Shown: positions 1,230 to 10,883 of the stretch, one piece after another
How positions within the stretch are numbered: position 1 is the stretch's first letter
Layout of the letters: every line of letters starts with the position of its first letter
NCBI GenBank assembly: GCA_963763775.1
Contig: CAVXPZ010000004.1
Location: 480,001 to 544,000 of the forward strand
DNA length: 64,000 nucleotides
Source of the DNA: an uncultured Chloroflexia bacterium
GTDB lineage: Bacteria > Chloroflexota > Limnocylindria > Limnocylindrales > CSP1-4
Direction: 5' to 3'
Notes under the pieces: generated by a model
Seen by the model: the letters and a program-made list of their open reading frames with translations, nothing else
Told to the model about the DNA's origin: nothing
Database searches by the model: none
Program-made: the position numbers and the translations under genes

Positions 1230-1736
1230 TCAGGGATCGCCCACGGCCGGATCGCGGAGCAGGCGCCGTTCCATTGATCGCATCGCGGCCTCCTCGGCCG
1301 GCTCGGCATGGTCCATGCCCATGATGTGGAGCGTCCCATGGGTGACGAGCAGTCGCAGCTCGTCGGCCGGCGCCCAGCGGACGTCGCCCGTCTGGCCGCC
1401 GCGTCCGGCCTCGGCCTGCTCGACGGCCCGTTCCACGGAGACGACCATGTCGCCGAGGTGCGGCCGTCGGCCCGGCGGGAGCGGGAACGGATCGTCCGAC
1501 AACAGCGGGAACGAGAGGACGTCCGTCGGGCCGTCCTTCCCCATGTGCGTGGCGTTGAGGCCGGCCAGCTCGGCGTCGTCGCTGAGGATGAGACCGATCG
1601 AGGCCGGCTTGGGGGCATCGGCCGCGGCCAGCGCCGCGACGATCGCCCGTGCGAGGACGACGGTGGCGACCGGCGGGCGGACGCCGTCACGGACGTCGAC
1701 GTCGATCCGCCATGGCCCGAGGTAGATACTTCGCAC
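1230..1736 (-). CDS. ybeY: rRNA maturation endoribonuclease YbeY
   Basis: LN..HMGKDGPTDVLSFP, LGDMVVS, HGTLHIMGMDH (HxxxHxxxxxH). Confidence 0.92.
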   Translation of the reverse strand: MRSIYLGPWRIDVDVRDGVRPPVATVVLARAIVAALAAADAPKPASIGLILSDDAELAGLNATHMGKDGPTDVLSFPLLSDDPFPLPPGRRPHLGDMVVSVERAVEQAEAGRGGQTGDVRWAPADELRLLVTHGTLHIMGMDHAEPAEEAAMRSMERRLLRDPAVGDP

Positions 1737-1807
1737 GGCGACACGGTAGTCGAGTCGAGGGCGTGCAGGGTCGATGGACGCAGCGTCGCGACGATCCTGG
1801 CCTCGAG

Positions 1808-4002
1808 CTAGGAGGCGGTCCCGCCCCCGGTGCCGCCCGCCCGTCGCGCCGCCGCCGCCGGCCGCCGCGCGCCGCGACTCGAGCTCCACCACGGTGTTCT
1901 GCGGGTAGGCGATCCGCGTGTGGTACATGCCGAGCAACTGCTCGACGAAGGCCTCGCGGATCCGCTCGAGGTCGCGGAGCGTCAGGTCGCACTCGTCGAA
2001 CTGGGCATCCGAGGTGCGCTCCTCGATGATGCGGCTGACCATGCCGCGGATGGCCGGCTCGTCGCGCGACGCGAGGGATCGGACGGATGCCTCGACGCCG
2101 TCGGCGAGCATGATCAGCGCCGCCTCACGCGTCTGCGGCTTCGGCCCGGCATGGCGGAACACGCGTTCGTCGACCGCCGCGGCGGCCTTCGCGCCTTCGG
2201 CGCTGGTGAGCCCGCCGTACGCGGCGGCAGCCCGCTCCTTCGCCCGGGCGAAGAAGTAGCTCATGATCGCGGTCCCGTGGTGCTGCGGGATGTAGGCGAT
2301 CAGGGCCTTCGGCAGGCGGTTCTTGTACGCGAGGTCGATGCCGTCGACCACGTGCTGCTTGACGATCTGGGCGCTGACCTCGGGCTCGAGCTGGTCGTGG
2401 ATGTTCTCGCCGCCGGCCTGGTTCTCGATGAAGGCGAGCGGGTTCGCGAGCTTGCCGATGTCGTGGTAGTACGCCGCGACGCGCGTCACGAGCGGGTCCG
2501 CGCCGATGGCCTCGGCCGCGCGTTCGGCGAGGTTGCCGACCATCAGCGAGTGGTGGTAGGTGCCGGGCGTCTCGACGAGCAGCCGTCGCAGGAGCGGCTG
2601 TGACGGGTTCGCCAGCTCGAGGAGCTGGAAGACGGTCAGGATCCCGAAGACCGAGCCGAGGACGGCGAACGTCCCGACGGCCGCGATCCCGGACCCGGCC
2701 GCCGATGCGGCCGAGGCGAACCACAGCTCGACGATGCCCTGGATGTCCCTGCGCCCCGAGGAGCGAGAAGACCGTGACGACCGCGGCATTCACGACGAAG
2801 ACCGCGAACGCGGCCTGCACGAACACCTGCAGGCGGTCGCCGCGCCGGATGGTGATGATCCCGGCGAGCCCGCCGAGGAAGATGTAGGACGCGAATTCGA
2901 GCGAGCCGCCGTTCACGGCGCCGCCGATGATCGCGACCAACGCCATCACGACCGTCGCCAGCGAGGCATCGAGCAGGATCGCGAGCAGCATCCCGATGGC
3001 CGCCGTCGGGAGGAAGTACTGCAGGATCGACCGGCCGGCGGTGACCTTCAGGGCGACCGTGGCGCCCGCCACGAGGAGCCCGGTCAGCAGGAGCGCGTTG
3101 TCCCGGTGCCACAGACCCGGGCGGAACCGCCACAGCCAGCCGAGCAGGATCCCGACGATCAACGCGCCGAGGATCGCCCAGCCGACCAGGCTCGCGACAT
3201 CCGGTCCGCGGTCGCCGGTCAGCCCGATCGCGTCGATCTTCTCGATGTCCTCGGCGGTCAGGCGCTCGTTGGCCCGGACGATGGCCTCGCCCTGGAGGAT
3301 CTGGACCATCACCGGGGCGACGGCCTCGGCCGCCTTCGACTGCTCCTGCGCGGTGAGCGGTGCGCTGAACGACGAGTTGGGGACGACGAGCGGGTTGATG
3401 AGCTCCGCCGCGAGGGCCCGCTGGTCGGCGTCCAGGCCGCCCGCCATCAGGCCCGCCAGGCGCGTCCGCGTCTCCGCGACCTCGGTGTCGCGCAACTCGG
3501 CTCGAAGCAGCGCATCGAGGACGCGCGCGGACTCCGTGCGGATGATCGGCCAGTCGCCCGGCTTGACCGCCGCGAGCGTCGCCCGTGCGTCCTTCGACAG
3601 GTCCGGGATGGCGGTCTCGAGGAGCGACGCGCGCTCGGCCTCGGGCAGGTCGGCGGCGAACGTCGTATCGACGCGGGAGACGCGCTGCTCGAAGGCGAGC
3701 TGCTGCTCCTGGGCGATCGCGATCGCGTTGTCCGTCGTGAAGTCGTACTGCGGCGGGACCGCCTCGCGGGCGGTGGCCCGCGCGGCCTCGGTCTGCGCGG
3801 CGCTCTCGAATTCCGTGGTCTTGGTCGCGATGATGTCGCGCGGCGCGAGGTCGCCGGCGGCCAGCGACAGCGGCTGCTGCGGCAGGATGTCCGCCCCGAG
3901 CACCACCGTCAGGATGATCACGAGGATCGCCGCGGAGATCCCGAGGCGCGTGGCGTCGCGGCGCGTGAATCGGGCGATCGCGTCGACGCGCTGGGTCAGC
4001 AT
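1808..4002 (-). CDS. 7TM-HD phosphohydrolase (PgpH/YqfF-like c-di-AMP phosphodiesterase family); frameshifts near 2750 and 1830
   Basis: Extracellular 7TM-HDED region and TM helices in ORF 2125-4002; PGTYHHS, YYHDIGK, QHHGT, LADGVEA HD motifs in ORF 1230-2789; typical ybeY neighbour. Confidence 0.88.
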
Positions 4003-4488: not shown

Positions 4489-4586
4489 CGGTTCGGCAAC
4501 CTCGGGCGGCGGTCGGCCGATCACTCGGCCTGGTGCCGGGACGCCCGCGGGGGCGCAGGGTCGGTCGGGTGCGAGCGGATGCTCGC

Positions 4587-4772
4587 TCAGCCGGCCTGCG
4601 TTCGGGCGTTCTTCTTGCGCTTCGCTTCCTTGCGCTTCCGCTTCACCGACGGCTTCTCGTAGTGCTCGCGTCGGCGAGCCTCTGCGAGGATGCCGCTCTG
4701 CTGGATCTTCTTGTTGAAGCGACGCAGGGCGCTCTCGAACGTCTCGTTCTCTCCCACTCGGACTTCAGCCAA
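4587..4772 (-). CDS. rpsU: 30S ribosomal protein S21
   Basis: [15 protein letters not shown]...[18 protein letters not shown]. Confidence 0.97.
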
Positions 4773-4900
4773 TCCCGGTTCACCTCCCCAGGCCTAGGGT
4801 CGTGTCTTCCGGCGTCGGGCTCGCGGCCAACCGGCCCGCACGCGTCCTGGACGGCTTCCCGCCAAGGGCCGCCGGAGCATAGCCGAGGCCCCCGAGGCGG

Positions 4901-5242
4901 TCAAACGGCCGGAAGGTGCTGTCCGAGGACGAAGATCCAGTAGGCATCCAGTCCAGCGACGACAGCCCAGAACCCGATGATGAGCGTCGGGCGCCGAAGG
5001 AAACACTTGCTCCACGACACGCCGAGCGTGATCGAGCGGGTGTACAGCACGATCGCGACGATCGCGACGACGAGCACGAAGACCGCCGGACCGACAAGCC
5101 AGGCGATCAGACCGATCGTACCCATCCGGCAGAAGGTGAACGCCAGCCGCTCGTACTTTTCGGGCCGACTCAGCGGAGGCCGGACGTAGGAGCCGGGCCC
5201 GACCGCGGGCGGCGCGAGGGAGTCACCGTGGATGCTCGTCAT
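4901..5242 (-). CDS. Small membrane protein (about 113 aa, two Cys), last gene of the radical SAM operon
   Basis: Start overlaps the rSAM stop (ATGA at 5242-5239); hydrophobic segments; FCRMGT and SKCFL. Confidence 0.75.
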   Translation of the reverse strand: MTSIHGDSLAPPAVGPGSYVRPPLSRPEKYERLAFTFCRMGTIGLIAWLVGPAVFVLVVAIVAIVLYTRSITLGVSWSKCFLRRPTLIIGFWAVVAGLDAYWIFVLGQHLPAV

Positions 5243-6825
5243 GGCACCGTCCTCAGCTCGCCTGACTCGAGTATGGGTGCCTGAGCAGCGGCGTCCAGAC
5301 TGACCAACCGGGCTGCGGGCACCATCCCTGCCGACGTTCGGCGACGCAGTTCCCCGAACACTTGCCTCGCGCAGAACGGGACCCGCACCGGGTTCGCTTC
5401 GCCGTCCGTCGACCCGACGTGGACACAGCATTGCTGCAGGCGCTCGACGTTCAGGGTCCATGGATCCATGAACGTCTTGATCGACACCCGCTTGACGCGC
5501 AGGGCGATCTCGTCGAGCGGCGCGCTCCCCCGGTTCGTGAGCCAGCGGCCAAGGCCCTTGATGAACCCCGACACCCCGAGGTCGCAGACCTCGCAGATGT
5601 CCAGGAGATAGTCGATGACCTCGCGCCGGCTGACCATCGCGGTCTCCGAGAGCAAGCCGGTCAGGGATTCCCAGAGCGCATCATCGGGCGCGAGGCGATT
5701 GCCGAACACGGCCATCCGCTGCTTCAGACGATCCCGTCCGATCAGTTGCACGATCGACCGATGACCTCCGTCATCGCCTCGGATGAAGTAGGTGAGCGAC
5801 GAGCAGTCCGGGTGGCTGCACGGCAGCGCGATGAAATCGTCCGGTCCGACCCGACCGTCGGTCTGCTCGCCGAGCCGGCGGATGGTGCCCGTCGTCGTCG
5901 CCCGTGCCATGGGATCGACCGGGTTGGCCCGCCCGGAGGTGAACATCGGCTGGATGGCGACCCCCGCGATGTAGTCGGTCGCGAAGGCATGGTCGACGAC
6001 GGCACCCACCTCGTCATCGTTGACCCCCTTGGCGACGGCCATCGCCAGCGTCGTGAAGATCCGCTCTCCCGTGAGCCGCCGGATCGCCTCTGCCTTCATG
6101 TCGCGAAGGTCCTCACCTCGATGGAACAGGTGGGTCTCCAGTCGAAAGCCGTCGAACTGGAGGTACACCTCGACGCGGTCCCGCAGGCGCGCGAGCTCCG
6201 CCAGGAACCGGTCGTCTCGAGCGATCCGGATCCCGTTGGTATTGAGGACCACGCGGGTGACCTTGCGCTCCGCGGCCGCGGGGAGGATCTCGACGATCTC
6301 CGGATGGACGGTCGGCTCGCCGCCCGACAGCATGAGGGCGTCGACCCGGCCACCCTCGCGCTCGATCGCCGTGTCGAGCGACCGCAGGATGTGCGGAAGT
6401 CGGGCATGACGATTGATCCCGGGACCACTGTCGGCGAAGCAGGTCGGGCAATGCAGATTGCAGTTCTGGGTCACGTCGAGCAGCAGGATGCAGCTGTGCT
6501 GGGTCTGGAGATCGCCGAGGCCGTCCAGGTAGCCCATCGGGATCGGCCTGACGTTGTCGGGGACGTCCGGCGTGATCTCGCGCGTCGGGATCCGCCAATC
6601 CTGGAGGTCCTCCCAGAGGTCGTGGTCCTCTTCGTACAGGCTCACCACCTCTCCGTGGCCCCGCTGGCAGTAGCGCCGCAGGTAGACCGCGCCGTCCATC
6701 GCCACGAGGTTGCCCTGGAGGATGTCGGTCTCGTAGTCGATCTCCCGATCGGGATCGTCGCTGAAGCACTGACCGCAGACGGTCAGCACCATTCGGAGCG
6801 GCAGATAGGGGCGAAGCTCCAGCAT
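5239..6825 (-). CDS. Radical SAM enzyme of the Tes/GDGT-MAS (MJ0619)-like family
   Basis: N-terminal CGQC...YCQRGHG; DVTQNCNLHCPTCFA (CxxxCxxC); SGGEPT; NTNG; VYLQFDG; PCSHPDC; C-terminal FMDPW..NVERLQQCCVH...VPFCAR. Confidence 0.85.
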   Translation of the reverse strand: MLELRPYLPLRMVLTVCGQCFSDDPDREIDYETDILQGNLVAMDGAVYLRRYCQRGHGEVVSLYEEDHDLWEDLQDWRIPTREITPDVPDNVRPIPMGYLDGLGDLQTQHSCILLLDVTQNCNLHCPTCFADSGPGINRHARLPHILRSLDTAIEREGGRVDALMLSGGEPTVHPEIVEILPAAAERKVTRVVLNTNGIRIARDDRFLAELARLRDRVEVYLQFDGFRLETHLFHRGEDLRDMKAEAIRRLTGERIFTTLAMAVAKGVNDDEVGAVVDHAFATDYIAGVAIQPMFTSGRANPVDPMARATTTGTIRRLGEQTDGRVGPDDFIALPCSHPDCSSLTYFIRGDDGGHRSIVQLIGRDRLKQRMAVFGNRLAPDDALWESLTGLLSETAMVSRREVIDYLLDICEVCDLGVSGFIKGLGRWLTNRGSAPLDEIALRVKRVSIKTFMDPWTLNVERLQQCCVHVGSTDGEANPVRVPFCARQVFGELRRRTSAGMVPAARLVSLDAAAQAPILESGELRTVP

Positions 6826-7367
6826 CAGGCGGACCCCATCCCCACGAAGGGGAGGCAGAGCCCCGTGATCGCGAGGAGCACGACGACCGGGACGACGAGC
6901 AAGATCGCCAGCGCGCGGCCAGCGCGCTCGGGGTCCGGATGGAGGGCCCGCAGGACCAGGGCCGAGATGCCGAGCCCGAGGAGGAGGGCGACCGTGAGCA
7001 CCCCCTGGGCCATCGGACCGGCGCCGTACGTGGTTGGACGACCCAGGTAGGCGAACGCGAATAGCACCCAGACGATGCCGTACGCACCCAGGATCGCCCA
7101 TCTCGCCCTCGATCTGATGGGCTTCATGGCATCGCGTTCATGCTCGCGGGCGGTGCGGAGGGCGAATGCCTCGCGGACCTCGTCAGCCGTGTATCCGCCG
7201 GCGATCGCCGCATGTTCGAGGGCGGCGTCGGTGAACTTCGATCGATTCACGGTCAACCAGGTGGCGAGCTGCTCCACCCTGGAGGCCCCTTGCCACCCGG
7301 TCGACGGGGAGACCGGCGTCGGATCCGGGTCGCTTGCTGCGGCGTCGCCTCGGCCGTTCTCAGTCAC
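6825..7367 (-). CDS. Membrane protein with three C-terminal TM helices ending in ...LLAITGLCLPF
   Basis: GTG start overlaps the lgt stop; its stop overlaps the rSAM ATG (TGATG). Confidence 0.75.
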   Translation of the reverse strand: MTENGRGDAAASDPDPTPVSPSTGWQGASRVEQLATWLTVNRSKFTDAALEHAAIAGGYTADEVREAFALRTAREHERDAMKPIRSRARWAILGAYGIVWVLFAFAYLGRPTTYGAGPMAQGVLTVALLLGLGISALVLRALHPDPERAGRALAILLVVPVVVLLAITGLCLPFVGMGSA

Positions 7368-8182
7368 GAGGTTCCCTCCATGTGGATGACGGGCGGCGGC
7401 GTGGGCACCCGGTAGGCGTCGCGTCGCACCTGGCGGATGAAATGGAGCACCAGGAGCGCGACCATGGGGATCAGGACCCATTGAGGCCCTGTCAAGCCAA
7501 GCGCCTGCGGTTCGTTCCCGCGAACGAACTCCACGAGAAATCGAAAGACCCCCGCAGCGACGAGGTACATCTTCACGGCATCGCCGGGGACGCTCACCTT
7601 GTCGCGATACCGCAGGATGACGGCGATCGCGATGAGATTGAACGCGATCTCGTACAGCATCGACGGATGCATCGGAACGTCGCACCCTGGGCAGCGAGCG
7701 AAGGCGGCTGCGGCGGCGGCATCGACGCTGATCCCCCAGGGCAGCCCCGTCGGCGTCCCGAGTGGGAGCTCCGAGAAGAAGCACCCGACCCGCCCGATCG
7801 CCGTCGCGACCGGGATCGCCAGCAGGTAGCAGTCGCCCGTGGAGCGCGTGTACCCGAAGGCGCGTTTCGTGAGGGCGATCGCCAGATACCCTCCCGCGAG
7901 CGCGCCCAGGATGCTCTTCCCGCTGTGCTCGATGACCTCGCTGAACGGGCGGTCGGCGAAGGCCGCATAGAGCTCGACGTGCTCCCACGACGTGATGACG
8001 CGCGCGCCGATCGCCCCACCGAGGACGGCGGCCAGGGAGATCCAGACGATCGGTCCGCCGAGCCATCCGCGGACCCGCAGTTCGCGGTAGTAGATCGCCA
8101 GGCCGACGGCCAGCGCGAGCACCGTGAACGCATCGTGCGTCATCAGGGTCAGGGGACCCAGCTGGAACAGGACCGGATGCAT
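7364..8182 (-). CDS. Prolipoprotein diacylglyceryl transferase (Lgt)-family paralog
   Basis: MHPVLFQLGP, IGARV, IGRVGCFF, GTPTGLPWGI, HPSMLYE, RFLVEFVR. Confidence 0.88.
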   Translation of the reverse strand: MHPVLFQLGPLTLMTHDAFTVLALAVGLAIYYRELRVRGWLGGPIVWISLAAVLGGAIGARVITSWEHVELYAAFADRPFSEVIEHSGKSILGALAGGYLAIALTKRAFGYTRSTGDCYLLAIPVATAIGRVGCFFSELPLGTPTGLPWGISVDAAAAAAFARCPGCDVPMHPSMLYEIAFNLIAIAVILRYRDKVSVPGDAVKMYLVAAGVFRFLVEFVRGNEPQALGLTGPQWVLIPMVALLVLHFIRQVRRDAYRVPTPPPVIHMEGTS

Positions 8183-8326: not shown

Positions 8327-9991
8327 ATGACGACCCTGCTCGATCTGCTCGATTCAGCCGTCGGACGCTACGGCGACCGCGGGGCCCTGGCCCTGCGACG
8401 CGACGACGGCACCACGGCCGAGTGGAGCTTCCGCGAGCTCCAGCGTCGCTCCCGGATCGCCGCGTGGCGGCTGCGCGCCCTGGGCCTCGAGCCGGGCGAC
8501 CGCATCCTGACGTGGTCGCCGTCCATGCCCGAGCTCGCCGCCGCCTACTACGGGGCGATGGAGGCCCGGCTCATCCTGGTGCCGCTGGACCTGCGGATGT
8601 CGCCGCAGGCGGTCGAGGGGATCGTGGCCGCGTCGAACGCTCGGCACCTCGTCCTGGGCACGGGCCGGGACGCGCCGGACCCGCGCGAGGCCGGCCTCGA
8701 GCACTTCCCGACGACGACCGTGGAGGCGCTGTGCGCCGAGCCGGCTCCGGATGACCCGGCGTTCCCGCCCGACTGGGAGGCGCGACAGGGCGCCTGGGAG
8801 CGACCGACCACGGACGAGACCTTCGAGCTCGTGTTCACCTCCGGCACGACCGGGAATCCGAAGGGCGTGACGCTCACCCACGACAACGTCGTCGCCTCGA
8901 TCGAGTCGTTCCACCGGATCGTGCCGCCGATGGAGCACCGGATCGTCTCGCTGCTCCCGCTCTCGCACCTGCTCGAGCAGGCCGTCGGGTTGTACTACGC
9001 GCTCGACGTCGGCGCGGACATCCTGTACGTGCGCAGCCGAAACCCGCGCGTGATCTTCGATGCGCTGCGCGACCACCGCGTCACGTCGATGGTGGTCGTC
9101 CCGCAGGTGCTCGACCTGTTCTGGAGCGCCATCGAGCGCGAGGTCGAGAAACGCGGACGCACGCGCGCGTTCGAGCGGCTTCGCTGGGTCGCGCGGCACC
9201 TGCCGATGGGCCTGCGGCCACGGCTCTTCGGCAGCATCCACACGCAGCTCGGCGGCCACTTCCGCCTGTTCCTCTCCTCGGGGGCGTTCCTGCCGCCGAG
9301 CCTCCAGCAGGCGTGGGAGGACATCGGCGTCACCGTCCTCCAGGGCTACGGCGCCACCGAGACCGGGACCGGCACCTGTACGACCCTCCAGGACCACGGG
9401 CCGGGCACGGTGGGGCGACCCCCAGAGGGCATCGAGATGCGGCTCGCGGCCGACGGCGAGATCCAGTTCCGCGGCCGCACGGTCTTCGGCGGCTACTGGA
9501 ACGACCCCGTGGCGACGGCCGACGCGTTCACCGAGGACGGCTGGTACCGGACCGGCGACATCGGCCACCTCGACGCGGACGGCCGGCTCATCCTGTCCGG
9601 GCGGACCAAGGACATCATCGTGCTGCCCAACGGGTTCAACGTGTACCCGGAGGACATCGAGAACGCCCTGCGGATCGCCGGCATCCGCGATTCGGTGGTC
9701 GCCGAGACCGAGCCGGGCCGCATCGAGGCCGTCGTCCTCGCCGGGACCCCGATCGGCGAGACCGTCGCGCCGCCGCCGCCGGCCGAGTTCCGCGCCCGCA
9801 TCGACGCGGCCGTCAAGGCCGCGAACGGGACCCTGGGCCCGAACCAGCGGATCGCGGCGTGGCGCCTGTGGCCGCAGGAGGACTTCCCGCGCACCCACAC
9901 GCTCAAGATCAAGCGGGCGCCCGTGCGCGCGTGGCTCGCCGCCGATCATCCCCTCCCGGTCTCGGACGAGTCGGCTCAGCCCACCGGGTAG
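8327..9991 (+). CDS. AMP-binding long-chain acyl-CoA ligase-like enzyme
   Basis: FTSGTTGNPKGV, LPLSH, QGYGATE, WYRTGDIG, GRTKDII, NVYPEDIE. Confidence 0.92.
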   Translation: MTTLLDLLDSAVGRYGDRGALALRRDDGTTAEWSFRELQRRSRIAAWRLRALGLEPGDRILTWSPSMPELAAAYYGAMEARLILVPLDLRMSPQAVEGIVAASNARHLVLGTGRDAPDPREAGLEHFPTTTVEALCAEPAPDDPAFPPDWEARQGAWERPTTDETFELVFTSGTTGNPKGVTLTHDNVVASIESFHRIVPPMEHRIVSLLPLSHLLEQAVGLYYALDVGADILYVRSRNPRVIFDALRDHRVTSMVVVPQVLDLFWSAIEREVEKRGRTRAFERLRWVARHLPMGLRPRLFGSIHTQLGGHFRLFLSSGAFLPPSLQQAWEDIGVTVLQGYGATETGTGTCTTLQDHGPGTVGRPPEGIEMRLAADGEIQFRGRTVFGGYWNDPVATADAFTEDGWYRTGDIGHLDADGRLILSGRTKDIIVLPNGFNVYPEDIENALRIAGIRDSVVAETEPGRIEAVVLAGTPIGETVAPPPPAEFRARIDAAVKAANGTLGPNQRIAAWRLWPQEDFPRTHTLKIKRAPVRAWLAADHPLPVSDESAQPTG

Positions 9992-10521
9992 GGGATCCCG
10001 ATCGTCTCGAGCGCGGCCTGGATGTCCGGGGCGGTGGGATCGGTCGCGGCGCCGGGAAGCCAGTCGTACACGATCACCGTCGTCCCGAGGCCGCGGATGA
10101 CGTGGACCGTGCCTTCCGGCGACTGGACGCGACCCGGGCCGGTGGCCAGCCACTGCTGCTGCTCGGCGGCCGCCGCGGCTGCGCGCTGCGTGTCGGGGAA
10201 CTCGTAGACGGCGATGAGGCCGCGGTCCTGGTCCTGCGGCATGAACGCCTGGTAGACGGCGCGCGGCGCCGAGGCCAGCAGCGGCGCTTCGGCCGGGCGG
10301 AACGGCGTCTGCGTGTCGAGGAGGGTCATCCGCCGCTCGCCGAGCGCGGCCGAGATGGCCGCGCGCGTCTGGAGGATCGCGTCGGTGGTCGGCCGGTCGG
10401 GAGCGGTCGTCGTCGCCGGGAAGGTCGCGGCGGGCGGCGGGGCCCCGGCAGCGCATCCGGCGACCACGAGCGCCCCGGCGAGCGCTCCAGTAAGCGCGAC
10501 GGCGCGGACCAGTCGGCTCAT
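9976..10521 (-). CDS. Putative lipoprotein, unknown function
   Basis: Signal peptide ending in lipobox VVAGC; coupled to the HIT gene (ATGA overlap). Confidence 0.7.
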   Translation of the reverse strand: MSRLVRAVALTGALAGALVVAGCAAGAPPPAATFPATTTAPDRPTTDAILQTRAAISAALGERRMTLLDTQTPFRPAEAPLLASAPRAVYQAFMPQDQDRGLIAVYEFPDTQRAAAAAAEQQQWLATGPGRVQSPEGTVHVIRGLGTTVIVYDWLPGAATDPTAPDIQAALETIGIPYPVG

Positions 10522-10883
10522 CCGGGCGGCCACTCGAACGGCCGGCCGCCCATCAGGTGCAGGTGCAGGTGGTCGACCGTCTGCCCGCCCCAACGGCCCA
10601 CGTTCGTCACGACGCGGTAGCCCGCGTCGGCGATGCCCTGCTCGCGGGCCACGGCCGCGCTCACCGCGAAGAGCCGGCCAAGCAATGGGCCGTCGGCCTC
10701 CGTCAGGTCCGCGGCCGAGCCGATGTGCCGGCGCGGGATCACGAGGATGTGCGTCGGCGCCCGGGGCGCGATGTCGCGGAACGCGATGACCTCGTCGTCC
10801 TCGTGGACCCGGGTCGATGGGATCTCGTCCGCGACGATGCGGCAGAACAGGCAGTCGGCGGCCACGGGCCCTCCTTCGGTCAT
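10518..10883 (-). CDS. Histidine triad (HIT/Hint) nucleotide-binding protein
   Basis: DCLFCRIV...AFRDIAPRAPTHILVIP...GQTVDHLHLHLMGGR. Confidence 0.95.
   Translation of the reverse strand: MTEGGPVAADCLFCRIVADEIPSTRVHEDDEVIAFRDIAPRAPTHILVIPRRHIGSAADLTEADGPLLGRLFAVSAAVAREQGIADAGYRVVTNVGRWGGQTVDHLHLHLMGGRPFEWPPG

What the first reader, a model, noticed from the sequence alone, without database searches (positions are those of the whole stretch)
4901..8182. Candidate undescribed lipid-crosslinking system: Tes/GDGT-MAS-like radical SAM enzyme in an operon with an Lgt paralog
Seen: four genes coupled by overlapping stop/start codons (lgt-like, membrane protein, rSAM, membrane protein). The rSAM has an N-terminal CxxC...C..(G)HG metal site, DVTxxCNLxCPxCFA, HPxC, and a C-terminal FMD...R...CCxH...PFC. 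Established: this is the layout of the MJ0619/Tes (GDGT-macrocyclic archaeol synthase) family, which joins lipid tails by C-C bond formation, and Lgt moves diacylglyceryl groups from phosphatidylglycerol to Cys. Inference: a bacterial pathway that makes membrane-spanning or macrocyclic lipids, or crosslinks the tails of a diacylglyceryl group attached to a dedicated membrane protein. I know of no characterised function for this gene combination.
Basis: partly seen in the sequence, partly recalled or inferred. Interest (0 to 1): 0.88.

Follow-up and report, generated by a model that had tools for sequence, protein, structure and literature searches.

The report
Conserved Lgt-like plus Tes-like enzyme module
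A four-gene membrane operon pairs a variant of the lipoprotein-lipidating enzyme Lgt with a relative of the archaeal enzyme that welds lipid tails together; the pair stays adjacent or fused across many bacterial phyla, and its product is unknown.

Summary
Four minus-strand genes with overlapping stops and starts encode:
- an Lgt-family protein (8182..7364);
- a 3-TM protein, B (7367..6825);
- a radical SAM enzyme (6825..5239);
- a 2-TM protein, D (5242..4901).

The rSAM has the whole-length fold of GDGT-MAS/Tes (Foldseek TM 0.75-0.79). [quoted passage not shown]

The Lgt linkage is strongly conserved:
- an Lgt-like match lies in the locus in 79 of 80 species-level genomes, mostly Actinomycetota and Chloroflexota;
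- 57 of 61 usable metagenome loci of a second rSAM clade also hold one;
- 57 protein clusters are natural Lgt-rSAM fusions, the three named ones being Planctomycetota or Verrucomicrobiota.

The Lgt-like clade keeps Lgt's Arg143 and Arg239 but has His for Tyr26 and Cys for Asn146. A preprint reports the same two changes in M. smegmatis MSMEG_5408. B and D carry invariant Cys.

Best reading (inference, about 0.4): a diacylglyceryl unit from phosphatidylglycerol is placed on a thiol and its tails are radical-coupled. Coupling of free phospholipids is a close rival. No paper found describes the pairing.

The parts
7364..8182 (-). Gene A: Lgt-family 7-TM protein (272 aa), a paralog and not the housekeeping Lgt. 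It keeps E. coli R143, E151, G154, R239, E243 and R246 and the HPS-LYE motif. It has His at Y26, Cys at N146, Leu at H103 and Ala at Y235.
   Evidence: Pfam PF01790 scores 111.4 bits. All NCBIfam lgt equivalogs are below cut-off, for example TIGR00544 at 57.4 against 118.9. Alignment to E. coli Lgt 5azb is. The genome holds a better Lgt elsewhere at 207.7 bits.
6825..7367 (-). Gene B: small membrane protein (180 aa as called). It has an N-terminal soluble part and three predicted TM segments. An invariant G-x-C sits near the far end of the last TM (window ...LAITGLCLPF...).
   Evidence: No Pfam or NCBIfam family. An iterated HMM finds relatives in 69 of 80 loci, with 0 hits in the reversed-sequence decoy. 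The Cys is present in 65 of 69, and Gly at -2 in all 65 of those. It also hits 19 of 80 clade-2 loci.
5239..6825 (-). Gene C: radical SAM enzyme (528 aa) of the Tes/TrsS/GDGT-MAS superfamily. It has a rubredoxin-like C17, C20, C53, H57 site, a radical SAM C122, C126, C129 motif and a C-terminal C466, C467, C485 motif. Extra conserved Cys are C336, C341, C411 and C414. It has no N-terminal auxiliary-cluster Cys motif.
   Evidence: NCBIfam TrsS scores 217.3 (cut-off 490) and Tes 182.7 (cut-off 450). PDB 7tol matches at E 6.6e-36. The AF2 model has pLDDT 85.4 and pTM 0.87. Foldseek hits 7tom at E 7.2e-37, TM 0.75/0.79. The clade has SH-aLRT 100.
4901..5242 (-). Gene D: 2-TM protein (113 aa) with two invariant Cys (C38 before TM1, C80 before TM2).
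   Evidence: No family found. The Atlas lists only 'hypothetical protein' clusters of Chloroflexota and Actinomycetota. An HMM hit lies just after the rSAM in 60 of 80 loci. The Cys are kept in 60 of 60 and 58 of 60. None was found in 80 clade-2 loci.
8327..9991 (+). Divergently transcribed AMP-binding (acyl-CoA-synthetase-type) gene. It is a possible but non-universal accessory.
   Evidence: Pfam PF00501 scores 219.2 bits. The start was read. The same family lies near the module in 16 of 79 clustered loci.

Best explanation
The four genes form one conserved membrane module. It handles a diacylglyceryl (DAG) unit taken from phosphatidylglycerol (PG) and performs radical chemistry on its hydrocarbon tails.

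Shown:
- A is an Lgt-family 7-TM protein. Its phosphate-binding Arg pair and most of the Lgt motif are under strict conservation. Two essential Lgt positions are replaced by an equally invariant His and Cys.
- C is a soluble enzyme with the full GDGT-MAS fold.
- A and C are neighbours or one polypeptide (A's C-terminus joined to C's N-terminus) across at least six phyla, going by record titles.
- B and D are small membrane proteins with invariant Cys.

Inferred:
1. A keeps the family's chemistry. It transfers DAG from PG to a thiol at the outer-leaflet face and releases glycerol phosphate. The thiol is most likely the G-x-C cysteine at the outer end of B's last helix. Alternatives are D's Cys38 or A's own Cys134, activated by His16.
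2. A's cytoplasmic C-terminus holds C at the inner face of the membrane.
3. C cleaves SAM, abstracts a hydrogen from an unactivated acyl-tail carbon held in a hydrophobic tunnel, and forms a new bond. As in GDGT-MAS this would be a tail-to-tail C-C bond made through a cluster-sulfur intermediate.

The predicted product is a tail-linked DAG, 2 Da lighter per bond, that is macrocyclic or bridges to a second lipid.

My odds for this thiol-bound version are about 0.4. My odds that the module performs radical chemistry on a lipid tail in some form are about 0.7.
For: Linkage of A and C:
- An Lgt-like match lies in the locus in 79 of 80 genome loci; the one miss has only 608 bases upstream. It is upstream in 73 and downstream in 6.
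- By record titles the 80 loci are 56 Actinomycetota, 19 Chloroflexota, 2 Armatimonadota and 1 each Gemmatimonadota, Verrucomicrobiota and Bacillota.
- In a second rSAM clade, 57 of 61 metagenome loci with at least 900 bases upstream hold an Lgt-like gene.
- 57 of the best 120 relatives of P0187 are LGT-Zn_ribbon-Radical_SAM fusions of 656-825 aa, on contigs up to 6.2 Mb (first seen).
- Among 40 relatives, orthologs of A occur in exactly the 5 genomes that hold orthologs of C.
- Only A and C recur among the neighbours.

A looks like an active enzyme with changed specificity:
- R131, C134, R214, E218 and R221 are invariant in 61 sequences.
- The His and Cys signature holds in 94% and 99% of 69 paralogs and in 81% and 88% of 16 fusions. 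In clade-2 genes it holds in 58 and 59 of 59.
- A preprint says Y26 governs PG entry, N146 H-bonds PG, and R143 and R239 position the phosphate (10.1101/2025.03.27.645668, passages).

C is GDGT-MAS-like over its whole length. The in-vitro substrate of GDGT-MAS is archaetidylglycerol, the archaeal counterpart of PG. The enzyme made in E. coli bound what were interpreted as bacterial phosphatidic acid molecules (PMC9433317, passages).

Topology fits. Lgt has seven TM helices with a periplasmic head after TM4, so its C-terminus is cytoplasmic. That is where a SAM-dependent domain must sit. The fusion model shows 7 helices, then a linker, then the rSAM domain.

Thiol candidates: B's G-x-C is present in 65 of 69. 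D's two Cys are kept in 60 of 60 and 58 of 60.
Against: - No product was observed, so every chemical step is inference.
- Y26 and N146 are essential in E. coli Lgt. The preprint's authors presume low Lgt activity for a protein with these changes.
- B's motif is not a canonical lipobox. Gly sits at -2 and a bulky residue at -1.
- B was not found in 11 of 80 loci and D in 20 of 80. In clade 2, B was found in only 19 of 80 loci and D in none. The universal core therefore needs no encoded acceptor.
- A's active site and C's active site lie on opposite faces of the membrane, and I cannot say how a tail would reach C.
- The auxiliary clusters are not conserved across the Lgt-linked clades. The window clade lacks the N-terminal Cys motif, and clade 2 lacks two of the three C-terminal Cys.
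- Other branches of the superfamily pair with methyltransferases, not with Lgt, so superfamily membership does not guarantee lipid coupling.
- From recall, cultured carriers such as Mycobacterium, Nocardia and Arthrobacter are not known for membrane-spanning lipids.
Confidence: 0.4

Rival explanations
1. Free-phospholipid tail coupling. The Lgt-like protein binds PG and presents it to the rSAM, or anchors the rSAM to the membrane. The rSAM joins the tails of free phospholipids into macrocyclic or membrane-spanning (diabolic-acid-type) lipids. B and D are accessory subunits and no protein is lipidated.
For: - The universal core is only the Lgt-like protein plus the rSAM, including single-chain fusions.
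- The rSAM has the whole-length GDGT-MAS fold.
- GDGT-MAS acts on free archaetidylglycerol (PMC9433317, passages).
- The PG phosphate-binding arginines are kept, while positions tied to PG entry are changed.
- Bacterial Tes homologs have been proposed, without experimental proof, as brGDGT synthases (PMC8941075; PMC11868695).
Against: - It leaves unexplained the invariant His and Cys pair in the Lgt-like active site.
- It leaves unexplained the strict conservation of the rest of the catalytic motif.
- It leaves unexplained the invariant Cys of B and D.
- From recall, no membrane-spanning lipid is reported from the cultured Actinomycetota that carry the module.
- The auxiliary-cluster Cys vary between clades.
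Confidence: 0.3
2. Protein maturation. The rSAM acts on the small Cys-bearing membrane proteins B and/or D, for example forming a thioether or modifying a Cys, as peptide-maturing rSAM enzymes do. The Lgt-like enzyme lipidates or merely docks them, and no lipid tail is the radical substrate.
For: - B and D are small, co-encoded, and carry invariant Cys.
- Beyond GDGT-MAS, the next structural neighbours of the rSAM core include peptide maturases: SkfB, SuiB and anSME.
Against: - Those matches cover only the rSAM core (TM 0.32-0.35). GDGT-MAS matches the N- and C-terminal domains as well.
- D is absent from 20 of 80 loci and from all clade-2 loci searched. B was not found in 61 of 80 clade-2 loci.
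- The fusions show that the constant partner is the Lgt-like protein.
Confidence: 0.12
3. Non-lipid small-molecule chemistry, such as methylation or cofactor work as once annotated for MJ0619. The Lgt-like protein serves only as a membrane anchor.
For: - JGI names many relatives '7,8-dihydro-6-hydroxymethylpterin dimethyltransferase'.
- Sister branches of the superfamily are fused to or adjacent to class I methyltransferases (P0259; L010). This shows functional diversity in the superfamily.
Against: - Lloyd et al. could not corroborate the pterin methylase assignment of MJ0619 and judged it incorrect from the structure, which shows a hydrophobic tunnel (PMC9433317, passages).
- A mere anchor would not keep an invariant active site.
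Confidence: 0.08
4. Ordinary redundancy. A is a spare housekeeping Lgt that happens to sit beside an unrelated rSAM gene.
For: A preprint speculates that MSMEG_5408 is redundant with the main Lgt in M. smegmatis (10.1101/2025.01.07.631728, passages).
Against: - Adjacency holds in 79 of 80 and 57 of 61 loci, and 57 clusters are fusions.
- Co-presence and co-absence are strict in 40 relatives.
- A distinct invariant His and Cys signature marks the clade.
- Every relative with the paralog also has a canonical-type Lgt.
Confidence: 0.03

Closest known systems
GDGT-MAS / Tes (tetraether lipid synthase; MJ0619, PDB 7TOL/7TOM; NCBIfam NF045702)
   Same: - Best solved-structure match by sequence (E 6.6e-36) and by fold over the whole chain (TM 0.75/0.79, 535 columns).
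- The rubredoxin-like Cys3His site, the CX3CX2C motif and the C-terminal FMD...CC...PFC motif are kept.
   Different: - 182.7 bits against a cut-off of 450, and 22% identity in the structural alignment.
- The three Cys of the N-terminal auxiliary [4Fe-4S] cluster are absent in the window protein and in every window-clade row displayed.
- Extra conserved Cys: C336, C341, C411 and C414.
- It is bacterial, and always partnered with an Lgt-like membrane protein. Such a partner does not appear in the passages I read of the Tes papers.
Lgt (prolipoprotein diacylglyceryl transferase; PF01790, TIGR00544, PDB 5AZB)
   Same: - Pfam domain over its full length.
- Seven-helix layout (fusion model).
- E. 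coli R143, E151, G154, R239, E243 and R246 and the HPS-LYE motif are kept.
   Different: - Below every NCBIfam lgt cut-off.
- Y26 is His and N146 is Cys, both invariant in the clade. Y235 is Ala in the window clade.
- It co-exists with a canonical-type Lgt in the same genome.
MSMEG_5408, the second Lgt homolog of Mycolicibacterium smegmatis
   Same: [quoted passage not shown] That is the signature of this clade. Eleven of the 80 loci are from Mycobacteriaceae.
   Different: I could not reach an M. smegmatis record. Whether MSMEG_5408 has the rSAM neighbour is therefore not checked. In the passages I read it is treated as a weak or redundant Lgt, not as part of an rSAM system.
TrsS, radical SAM (seleno)protein (NCBIfam NF045646)
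   Same: Highest-scoring curated family for the rSAM at 217.3 bits. It belongs to the same superfamily.
   Different: The cut-off of 490 is not reached. A bona fide TrsS (P0244, 569.9 bits) falls in the other half of the midpoint-rooted tree, beside a methyltransferase fusion. It keeps the GCPxDCGLC motif.
Mss, bacterial membrane-spanning lipid synthase of Thermotoga and Thermoanaerobacter
   Same: An rSAM enzyme shown to couple fatty-acyl tails into diabolic acids when expressed anaerobically in E. coli. The authors describe it as remotely related to Tes (PMC13159169, passages).
   Different: No Mss sequence was at hand, so no comparison was made. Mss is reported from anaerobes, and no Lgt partner appears in the passages I read.

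Membership tests
Tes / GDGT-MAS (NF045702) | Score at or above NCBIfam's curated equivalog cut-off (450 bits) | tested here: not met
   182.7 bits. A whole-genome search gave 177.6 bits, not over the cut-off. None of 20 nearest representatives scanned reached it either.
Tes / GDGT-MAS (NF045702) | Radical SAM CX3CX2C cluster motif | tested here: met
   C122-NLH-C126-PT-C129. Pfam PF04055 scores 71.1 bits. The motif is invariant in 66 sequences.
Tes / GDGT-MAS (NF045702) | N-terminal rubredoxin-like Cys3His site (C9X2C12X20C33X2H36 in MJ0619; PMC9433317, legend) | tested here: met
   C17, C20, C53 and H57 align with it, with a clade-specific insertion between the Cys pairs. Pfam Zn_ribbon_HMPTM scores only 17 bits, below its cut-off of 27.
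Tes / GDGT-MAS (NF045702) | N-terminal auxiliary [4Fe-4S] cluster bound by three Cys (C73, C77, C80) and a His | tested here: not met
   The GCPxDCGLC motif is replaced by P-I-P-M-G-Y..GL..QTQH in the window protein and in every window-clade row displayed. Only the His (H110) remains. Twelve of the 13 other relatives displayed, including TrsS, keep GCPxDCGLC; the thirteenth, P0141, has a Cys-rich variant.
Tes / GDGT-MAS (NF045702) | C-terminal auxiliary-cluster domain | tested here: inconclusive
   FMD...CC.H...PFC aligns with 7tol and is nearly invariant. The passages I read do not number the liganding Cys, and no metal can be tested here.
Tes / GDGT-MAS (NF045702) | Overall four-domain fold with hydrophobic lipid tunnels | tested here: inconclusive
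   The fold matches (7tom TM 0.75/0.79; model pLDDT 85.4). Tunnels could not be measured because no coordinates are returned.
Tes / GDGT-MAS (NF045702) | Catalyses C-C coupling of lipid tail termini | not testable with these tools
   This needs an enzyme assay or lipid analysis.
TrsS (NF045646) | Score at or above the curated cut-off (490 bits) | tested here: not met
   217.3 bits. A true TrsS (P0244, 569.9 bits) lies elsewhere in the tree.
Lgt (PF01790 / TIGR00544) | Pfam LGT domain over the gathering score | tested here: met
   111.4 bits against 24.9, covering residues 3-248.
Lgt (PF01790 / TIGR00544) | NCBIfam lgt equivalog cut-off | tested here: not met
   TIGR00544 scores 57.4 against 118.9. 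NF000778 scores 69.8 against 334.
Lgt (PF01790 / TIGR00544) | 13-residue Lgt motif Y26 H103 G104 G142 R143 G145 N146 E151 G154 Y235 R239 E243 R246 (10.1101/2025.03.27.645668, passage) | tested here: not met
   R143, G145, E151, G154, R239, E243 and R246 are kept. Y26 is His, H103 is Leu, N146 is Cys and Y235 is Ala. Y26 and N146 are essential in E. coli.
Lgt (PF01790 / TIGR00544) | Transfers diacylglyceryl from PG to a lipobox Cys | not testable with these tools
   This needs a biochemical assay.
MoaA (TIGR02666) | Score at or above the curated cut-off (284 bits) | tested here: not met
   42.1 bits, covering the rSAM core only.
Mss (bacterial membrane-spanning lipid synthase) | Sequence similarity to the characterised Thermotoga or Thermoanaerobacter enzymes | not tested

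The most novel reading that the evidence does not exclude
The Lgt-like/rSAM pair is a machine that builds a tail-linked diacylglyceryl structure across the bilayer. The Lgt-like subunit fixes a PG-derived diacylglyceryl at the outer leaflet, on its own invariant Cys or on the small partner's Cys. The tethered GDGT-MAS-type enzyme welds a tail from the inner face. This would be a bacterial solution to making bipolar membrane-spanning lipids or anchors. It would also be a candidate for the unassigned source of membrane-spanning (iso-diabolic or brGDGT-type) lipids in aerobic soil Actinomycetota, Chloroflexota, Planctomycetota, Verrucomicrobiota and Acidobacteriota.
Probability: 0.15. Interest if true: 0.92.

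Novelty: new variant of a known kind. Interest (0 to 1): 0.78.

Why it matters
Three open questions become testable together.

1. What do bacterial Tes-like enzymes do? As of 2025 their role was still described as not confirmed experimentally (PMC11868695, passage). They are the main candidates for the bacterial membrane-spanning lipids used as palaeoclimate proxies (PMC8941075).

2. What is the second, 'low-activity' Lgt of mycobacteria and many other bacteria for? The His and Cys signature reported for MSMEG_5408 is the hallmark of the rSAM-linked clade.

3. How can a lipid-tail-coupling enzyme be coupled to the membrane? The natural fusions give a defined architecture to study.

The module occurs in easily grown, non-pathogenic genera such as Arthrobacter, Knoellia, Microbacterium, Nonomuraea and Aquisphaera. 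Knock-outs with lipidomics are therefore ordinary experiments.

Tried and rejected
**Complex prediction.** I sent three chains (A4 Lgt-like, A3 rSAM, A2 D) with D as the partner. The score was 0.00 and the tool gave no verdict. It counts neither for nor against binding.

**Fold of a natural fusion (P0279 with 58 rows).** Both domains fold (pLDDT 82.2). pTM is 0.63 and the linker at 247-262 is disordered. The relative placement of the domains is therefore not fixed, and I draw no docking conclusion.

**Expression.** No RNA holder was listed. All holders had small shares of 0.17 or less. I did not lay reads.

**D outside the window clade.** The D HMM found 0 of 80 clade-2 loci.

**Naming B and D.**
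- Pfam and NCBIfam gave nothing above cut-off. An actinobacterial B (L040) also had no Pfam match.
- The Atlas gave only 'hypothetical protein' clusters.

**Conserved neighbours beyond the module.** There are none. The next most common neighbour is an AMP-binding enzyme in 16 of 79 loci. The rest are regulators, a P-type ATPase or housekeeping genes.

**Phylogeny against archaeal Tes.**
- I could not obtain a bona fide Tes sequence. The control genomes give no loci.
- The tree therefore holds one TrsS but no true Tes. It is a quick LG+G4 tree rooted at the midpoint, and its deep split has only 53% support.
- I left the third protein search unused.

**Lipid tunnels.** They could not be examined, because models are returned without coordinates.

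**Literature.**
- Searches for the pairing found nothing relevant.
- Searches gave the Tes, brGDGT and MSMEG_5408 papers cited here.
- Supplements were closed. Supplementary Fig. 4 and Table 2 of PMC8941075 and Suppl. Fig. 5 of 10.1101/2025.03.27.645668 may already show these clades.

**Rejected reading.** A fusion of Lgt-like and rSAM in L077 or L020 is not real. The long ORFs there are upstream extensions in the rSAM frame, and the Lgt-like gene lies in another frame.

Full report
**What is in the sequence**

Region 4901-8182 holds four co-directional minus-strand genes.
- A runs from 8182 to 7364 (272 aa).
- B runs from 7367 to 6825 (180 aa, GTG start).
- C runs from 6825 to 5239 (528 aa).
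- D runs from 5242 to 4901 (113 aa).

The junctions are GTGA, TGATG and ATGA, so each stop overlaps the next start. Downstream lies rpsU (4587-4772; Pfam S21, 77.2 bits). Upstream and divergent lies an AMP-binding enzyme gene (8327-9991). G+C is 0.67-0.68 over the operon and 0.70-0.75 in the flanks.

**Family assignments**

- A matches Pfam LGT at 111.4 bits. C matches Radical_SAM at 71.1 bits, with a sub-threshold hit to the HMPTM zinc ribbon.
- In NCBIfam the only strong matches of C are TrsS (217.3 bits, cut-off 490) and Tes (182.7 bits, cut-off 450). MoaA scores 42 bits. A is below every lgt equivalog cut-off.
- B and D match nothing.
- The genome is a Limnocylindria-type Chloroflexota MAG, going by the names attached to near-identical proteins. 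It holds three LGT-family genes. A better Lgt sits on another contig at 207.7 bits, so A is a paralog.

**The rSAM is GDGT-MAS-like but is not Tes**

- By sequence the best solved structure is 7tol/7tom (GDGT-MAS, MJ0619) at E 6.6e-36.
- An AlphaFold2 model built on a 66-row alignment has pLDDT 85.4 and pTM 0.87.
- That model matches 7tom over 535 columns at TM 0.75/0.79. The next hit (SkfB, TM 0.35) covers only the rSAM core.
- Compared with the metal sites described by Lloyd et al. (PMC9433317, passages and legends), C keeps three sites. These are the rubredoxin-like Cys3His site (C17, C20, C53, H57), the CX3CX2C motif and the C-terminal CC...C motif.
[quoted passage not shown] In its place stands P-I-P-M-G-Y..GL..QTQH-S-C. 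All window-clade rows displayed share this loss. Of the 13 other relatives displayed, 12 keep GCPxDCGLC, including a true TrsS; P0141 has a Cys-rich variant.
- Of 20 nearest full-length cluster representatives scanned, none reaches the Tes cut-off and one (P0244) reaches the TrsS cut-off.
- In a quick IQ-TREE of 78 rows, the window clade (19 rows) has SH-aLRT 100 on a long stem of 0.70. TrsS lies in the other half of the midpoint-rooted tree. No bona fide archaeal Tes could be included.

**The Lgt linkage is conserved**

- A scan of one genome per species returned 80 loci. By record titles these are 56 Actinomycetota, 19 Chloroflexota, 2 Armatimonadota and 1 each Gemmatimonadota, Verrucomicrobiota and Bacillota.
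- The Actinomycetota include Mycobacteriaceae (11), Nocardiaceae, Streptosporangiaceae, Micromonosporaceae, Microbacteriaceae, Micrococcaceae and Intrasporangiaceae.
- tblastn finds an Lgt-like gene in 79 of 80 loci. The exception has only 608 bases upstream. The gene is upstream in 73 and downstream in 6.
- Clustering all neighbours shows only the rSAM (79 loci) and the Lgt-like gene (68 by BLAST clustering) as recurrent. Next comes an AMP-binding enzyme in 16 loci.
- Within the window's own genus the pair is patchy and strictly co-inherited. Of 40 relatives, five (G006, G014, G017, G019, G021) hold an rSAM ortholog at 73-88% identity. The same five hold the Lgt-like ortholog at 66-88%. All others have only a 29-36% identical canonical-type Lgt. 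These relatives are kin, so this is not a statistical test.

**Fusions and a second clade**

- Among longer cluster representatives, P0187, P0226 and the fragment P0251 carry LGT, Zn_ribbon_HMPTM and Radical_SAM in one chain.
- A search with P0187 lists 57 such fusion clusters among its best 120 hits. They are 656-825 aa long, on contigs up to 6.2 Mb. Only three carry an NCBI organism name: Tepidisphaeraceae, Tepidisphaerales and Verrucomicrobiota.
- Their closest unfused relatives include Aquisphaera, Acidobacteria, Kapabacteria and Opitutaceae.
- In 80 metagenome loci of that unfused clade, 62 have an Lgt-like HMM hit. Of the 61 loci with at least 900 bases upstream, 57 have one. In 56 of those it is upstream on the same strand.
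- Again, nothing else recurs near these genes.
- The order in the fusions is Lgt-like first, rSAM second. Lgt has seven TM helices with a periplasmic head after TM4. Its C-terminus is therefore cytoplasmic, which is where an rSAM domain must work.
- The fold of a fusion shows seven helices, a disordered linker and the rSAM domain. Its pTM of 0.63 does not fix their orientation.

**A signature for the rSAM-linked Lgt-like clade**

Alignment to E. coli Lgt and to the genome's own canonical-type Lgt gives these results.
- E. coli R143, G145, E151, G154, R239, E243 and R246 and the HPS-LYE motif are kept.
- Y26 is His in 94% of 69 paralogs, in 81% of 16 fusions, and in 58 of 59 clade-2 genes.
- N146 is Cys in 99%, 88% and 59 of 59 respectively.
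- Y235 is Ala in the window clade but Tyr in clade 2.

A preprint on Lgt (10.1101/2025.03.27.645668, passages) reports that Y26, R143, N146, G154 and R239 are essential in E. coli. It says Y26 acts in PG entry, N146 H-bonds PG, and the two arginines position the phosphate. [quoted passage not shown]

That is this clade's signature. I could not reach an M. smegmatis record to check for the rSAM neighbour. A second preprint treats MSMEG_5408 as possibly redundant or as preferring another lipid (10.1101/2025.01.07.631728, passages).

**The small membrane proteins**

D:
- D has HMM relatives directly after the rSAM in 60 of 80 loci. It is missing from most Mycobacteriaceae loci and from truncated contigs. 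None was found in clade 2.
- Its two Cys are kept in 60 of 60 and 58 of 60. The seed set was chosen with a pattern that required the first Cys, so only the second is an independent observation.

B:
- By BLAST, B looked lineage-specific.
- In 56 of the 73 loci with the Lgt-like gene upstream, the gap between it and the rSAM holds an open frame with two or more predicted TM segments.
- An iterated HMM recovers relatives in 69 of 80 loci, either in that gap or after D. It gives no hit in a reversed-sequence decoy.
- 65 of the 69 share a Cys with Gly at -2, near the far end of the last TM.
- The same HMM hits 19 of 80 clade-2 loci, always on the rSAM strand and next to it.
- The HMM was built by iteration on the same loci, and TM proteins are compositionally biased. 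This family is therefore less secure than the others.
- The loop before B's last helix is positively charged, so I place the Cys at the outer face. That is an inference.

**How it most likely works**

Shown:
- a conserved pair, sometimes fused, of an Lgt-derived membrane enzyme with a conserved but altered active site and a cytoplasmic GDGT-MAS-fold rSAM;
- Cys-bearing small membrane partners.

Established for the families:
- Lgt moves diacylglyceryl from PG to a Cys thiol at the outer leaflet.
- GDGT-MAS abstracts H from a terminal carbon of a saturated tail of archaetidylglycerol. It couples two tails through a cluster-sulfur intermediate (PMC9433317, abstract and passages).

Inference:
- Each family keeps its chemistry. 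A PG-derived diacylglyceryl is placed on a thiol. The candidates are B's Cys, D's Cys38 or A's own Cys134 with His16.
- The tails are then radical-coupled, giving a species 2 Da lighter. I put this at about 0.4.
- The close rival, at about 0.3, is coupling of free phospholipids, with the Lgt-like protein as a PG-presenting or anchoring subunit. It fits the minimal two-part core but does not explain the invariant His and Cys pair or the partners' Cys.
- Weaker rivals are maturation of B and D as protein substrates (0.12), non-lipid chemistry (0.08) and coincidence (0.03).

Against all lipid readings:
- No product is known.
- The two active sites face opposite sides of the membrane.
- The auxiliary-cluster Cys differ between the Lgt-linked clades.
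- Sister branches of the superfamily pair with methyltransferases instead.

**Comparison with the literature, and novelty**

- Bacterial Tes homologs were proposed as brGDGT synthases (PMC8941075, passages; 10.1101/2022.04.07.487437, passages).
- They were not found in known diabolic-acid producers (PMC13159169, passages).
- They remain unconfirmed experimentally (PMC11868695, passage; review PMC13459092, passages).
- Those surveys used thresholds such as E below 1e-50 against archaeal Tes. The window protein scores 127 bits against MJ0619. This clade was probably below those thresholds, which is an inference.
- Four full-text searches for the Lgt-rSAM pairing found nothing relevant. Supplements were closed.
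- I rate the module a new variant of a known kind. Both parts belong to known families, but the conserved partnership, the His and Cys signature tied to it, and the small Cys partners are not described in what I could search.

**Limits**

- Complex prediction gave no verdict.
- No RNA run was listed.

Noticed in passing
G000:C1:1294458-1295174 (locus L003), outside the window: A third LGT-family gene in the same genome (71.1 bits). Its translation lacks the GR.GN signature. It resembles the divergent subgroup without R143 and R239 that the Lgt preprint mentions for Anaerolineales and others.
   Followed up: partly
L010 (G018:C116:3953-8251), a same-genus relative: A second kind of Tes/TrsS-like rSAM (32% identical to the window protein) that keeps the GCPLDCGIC motif. 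It has no Lgt-like gene within 1.5 kb and is followed by a class I methyltransferase gene. P0259 is a methyltransferase-rSAM fusion that is sister to a true TrsS. Another branch of the superfamily therefore seems tied to methyl transfer.
   Followed up: partly
window 8327-9991 (+): An AMP-binding (acyl-CoA-synthetase-type) gene lies divergent from the operon, 144 bases from the Lgt-like start. The same family lies near the module in 16 of 79 loci. It may supply activated fatty acid, or it may be a chance neighbour.
   Followed up: partly
window 4500-8000; loci L014, L027, L029, L047, L049: The operon's G+C (0.67-0.68) is below that of its flanks (0.70-0.75), and only 5 of 24 same-genus genomes searched carry it. 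Gemmatimonadaceae and Oscillochloridaceae copies nest inside the actinobacterial clade. Contigs titled Verrucomicrobiia, Rubrobacter and Clostridia carry copies 64-80% identical to the Chloroflexota ones. This points to horizontal transfer, mis-binned contigs, or both.
   Followed up: no
Alignment A6 (fusion proteins), positions 246-247 of P0279: A conserved Cys-Cys pair (C246 invariant, C247 nearly so) sits at the end of the Lgt-like domain, just before the disordered linker to the rSAM domain. Its role is unknown.
   Followed up: no
window 1230-2789 (-), 4587-4772 (-), 10518-10883 (-): The module is set among housekeeping genes: an HD/YbeY fusion, rpsU and a HIT-family protein. In related Limnocylindrales-type loci (L016, L017) the genes after D include YqeY and a 7TM-HD protein.
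   Followed up: partly
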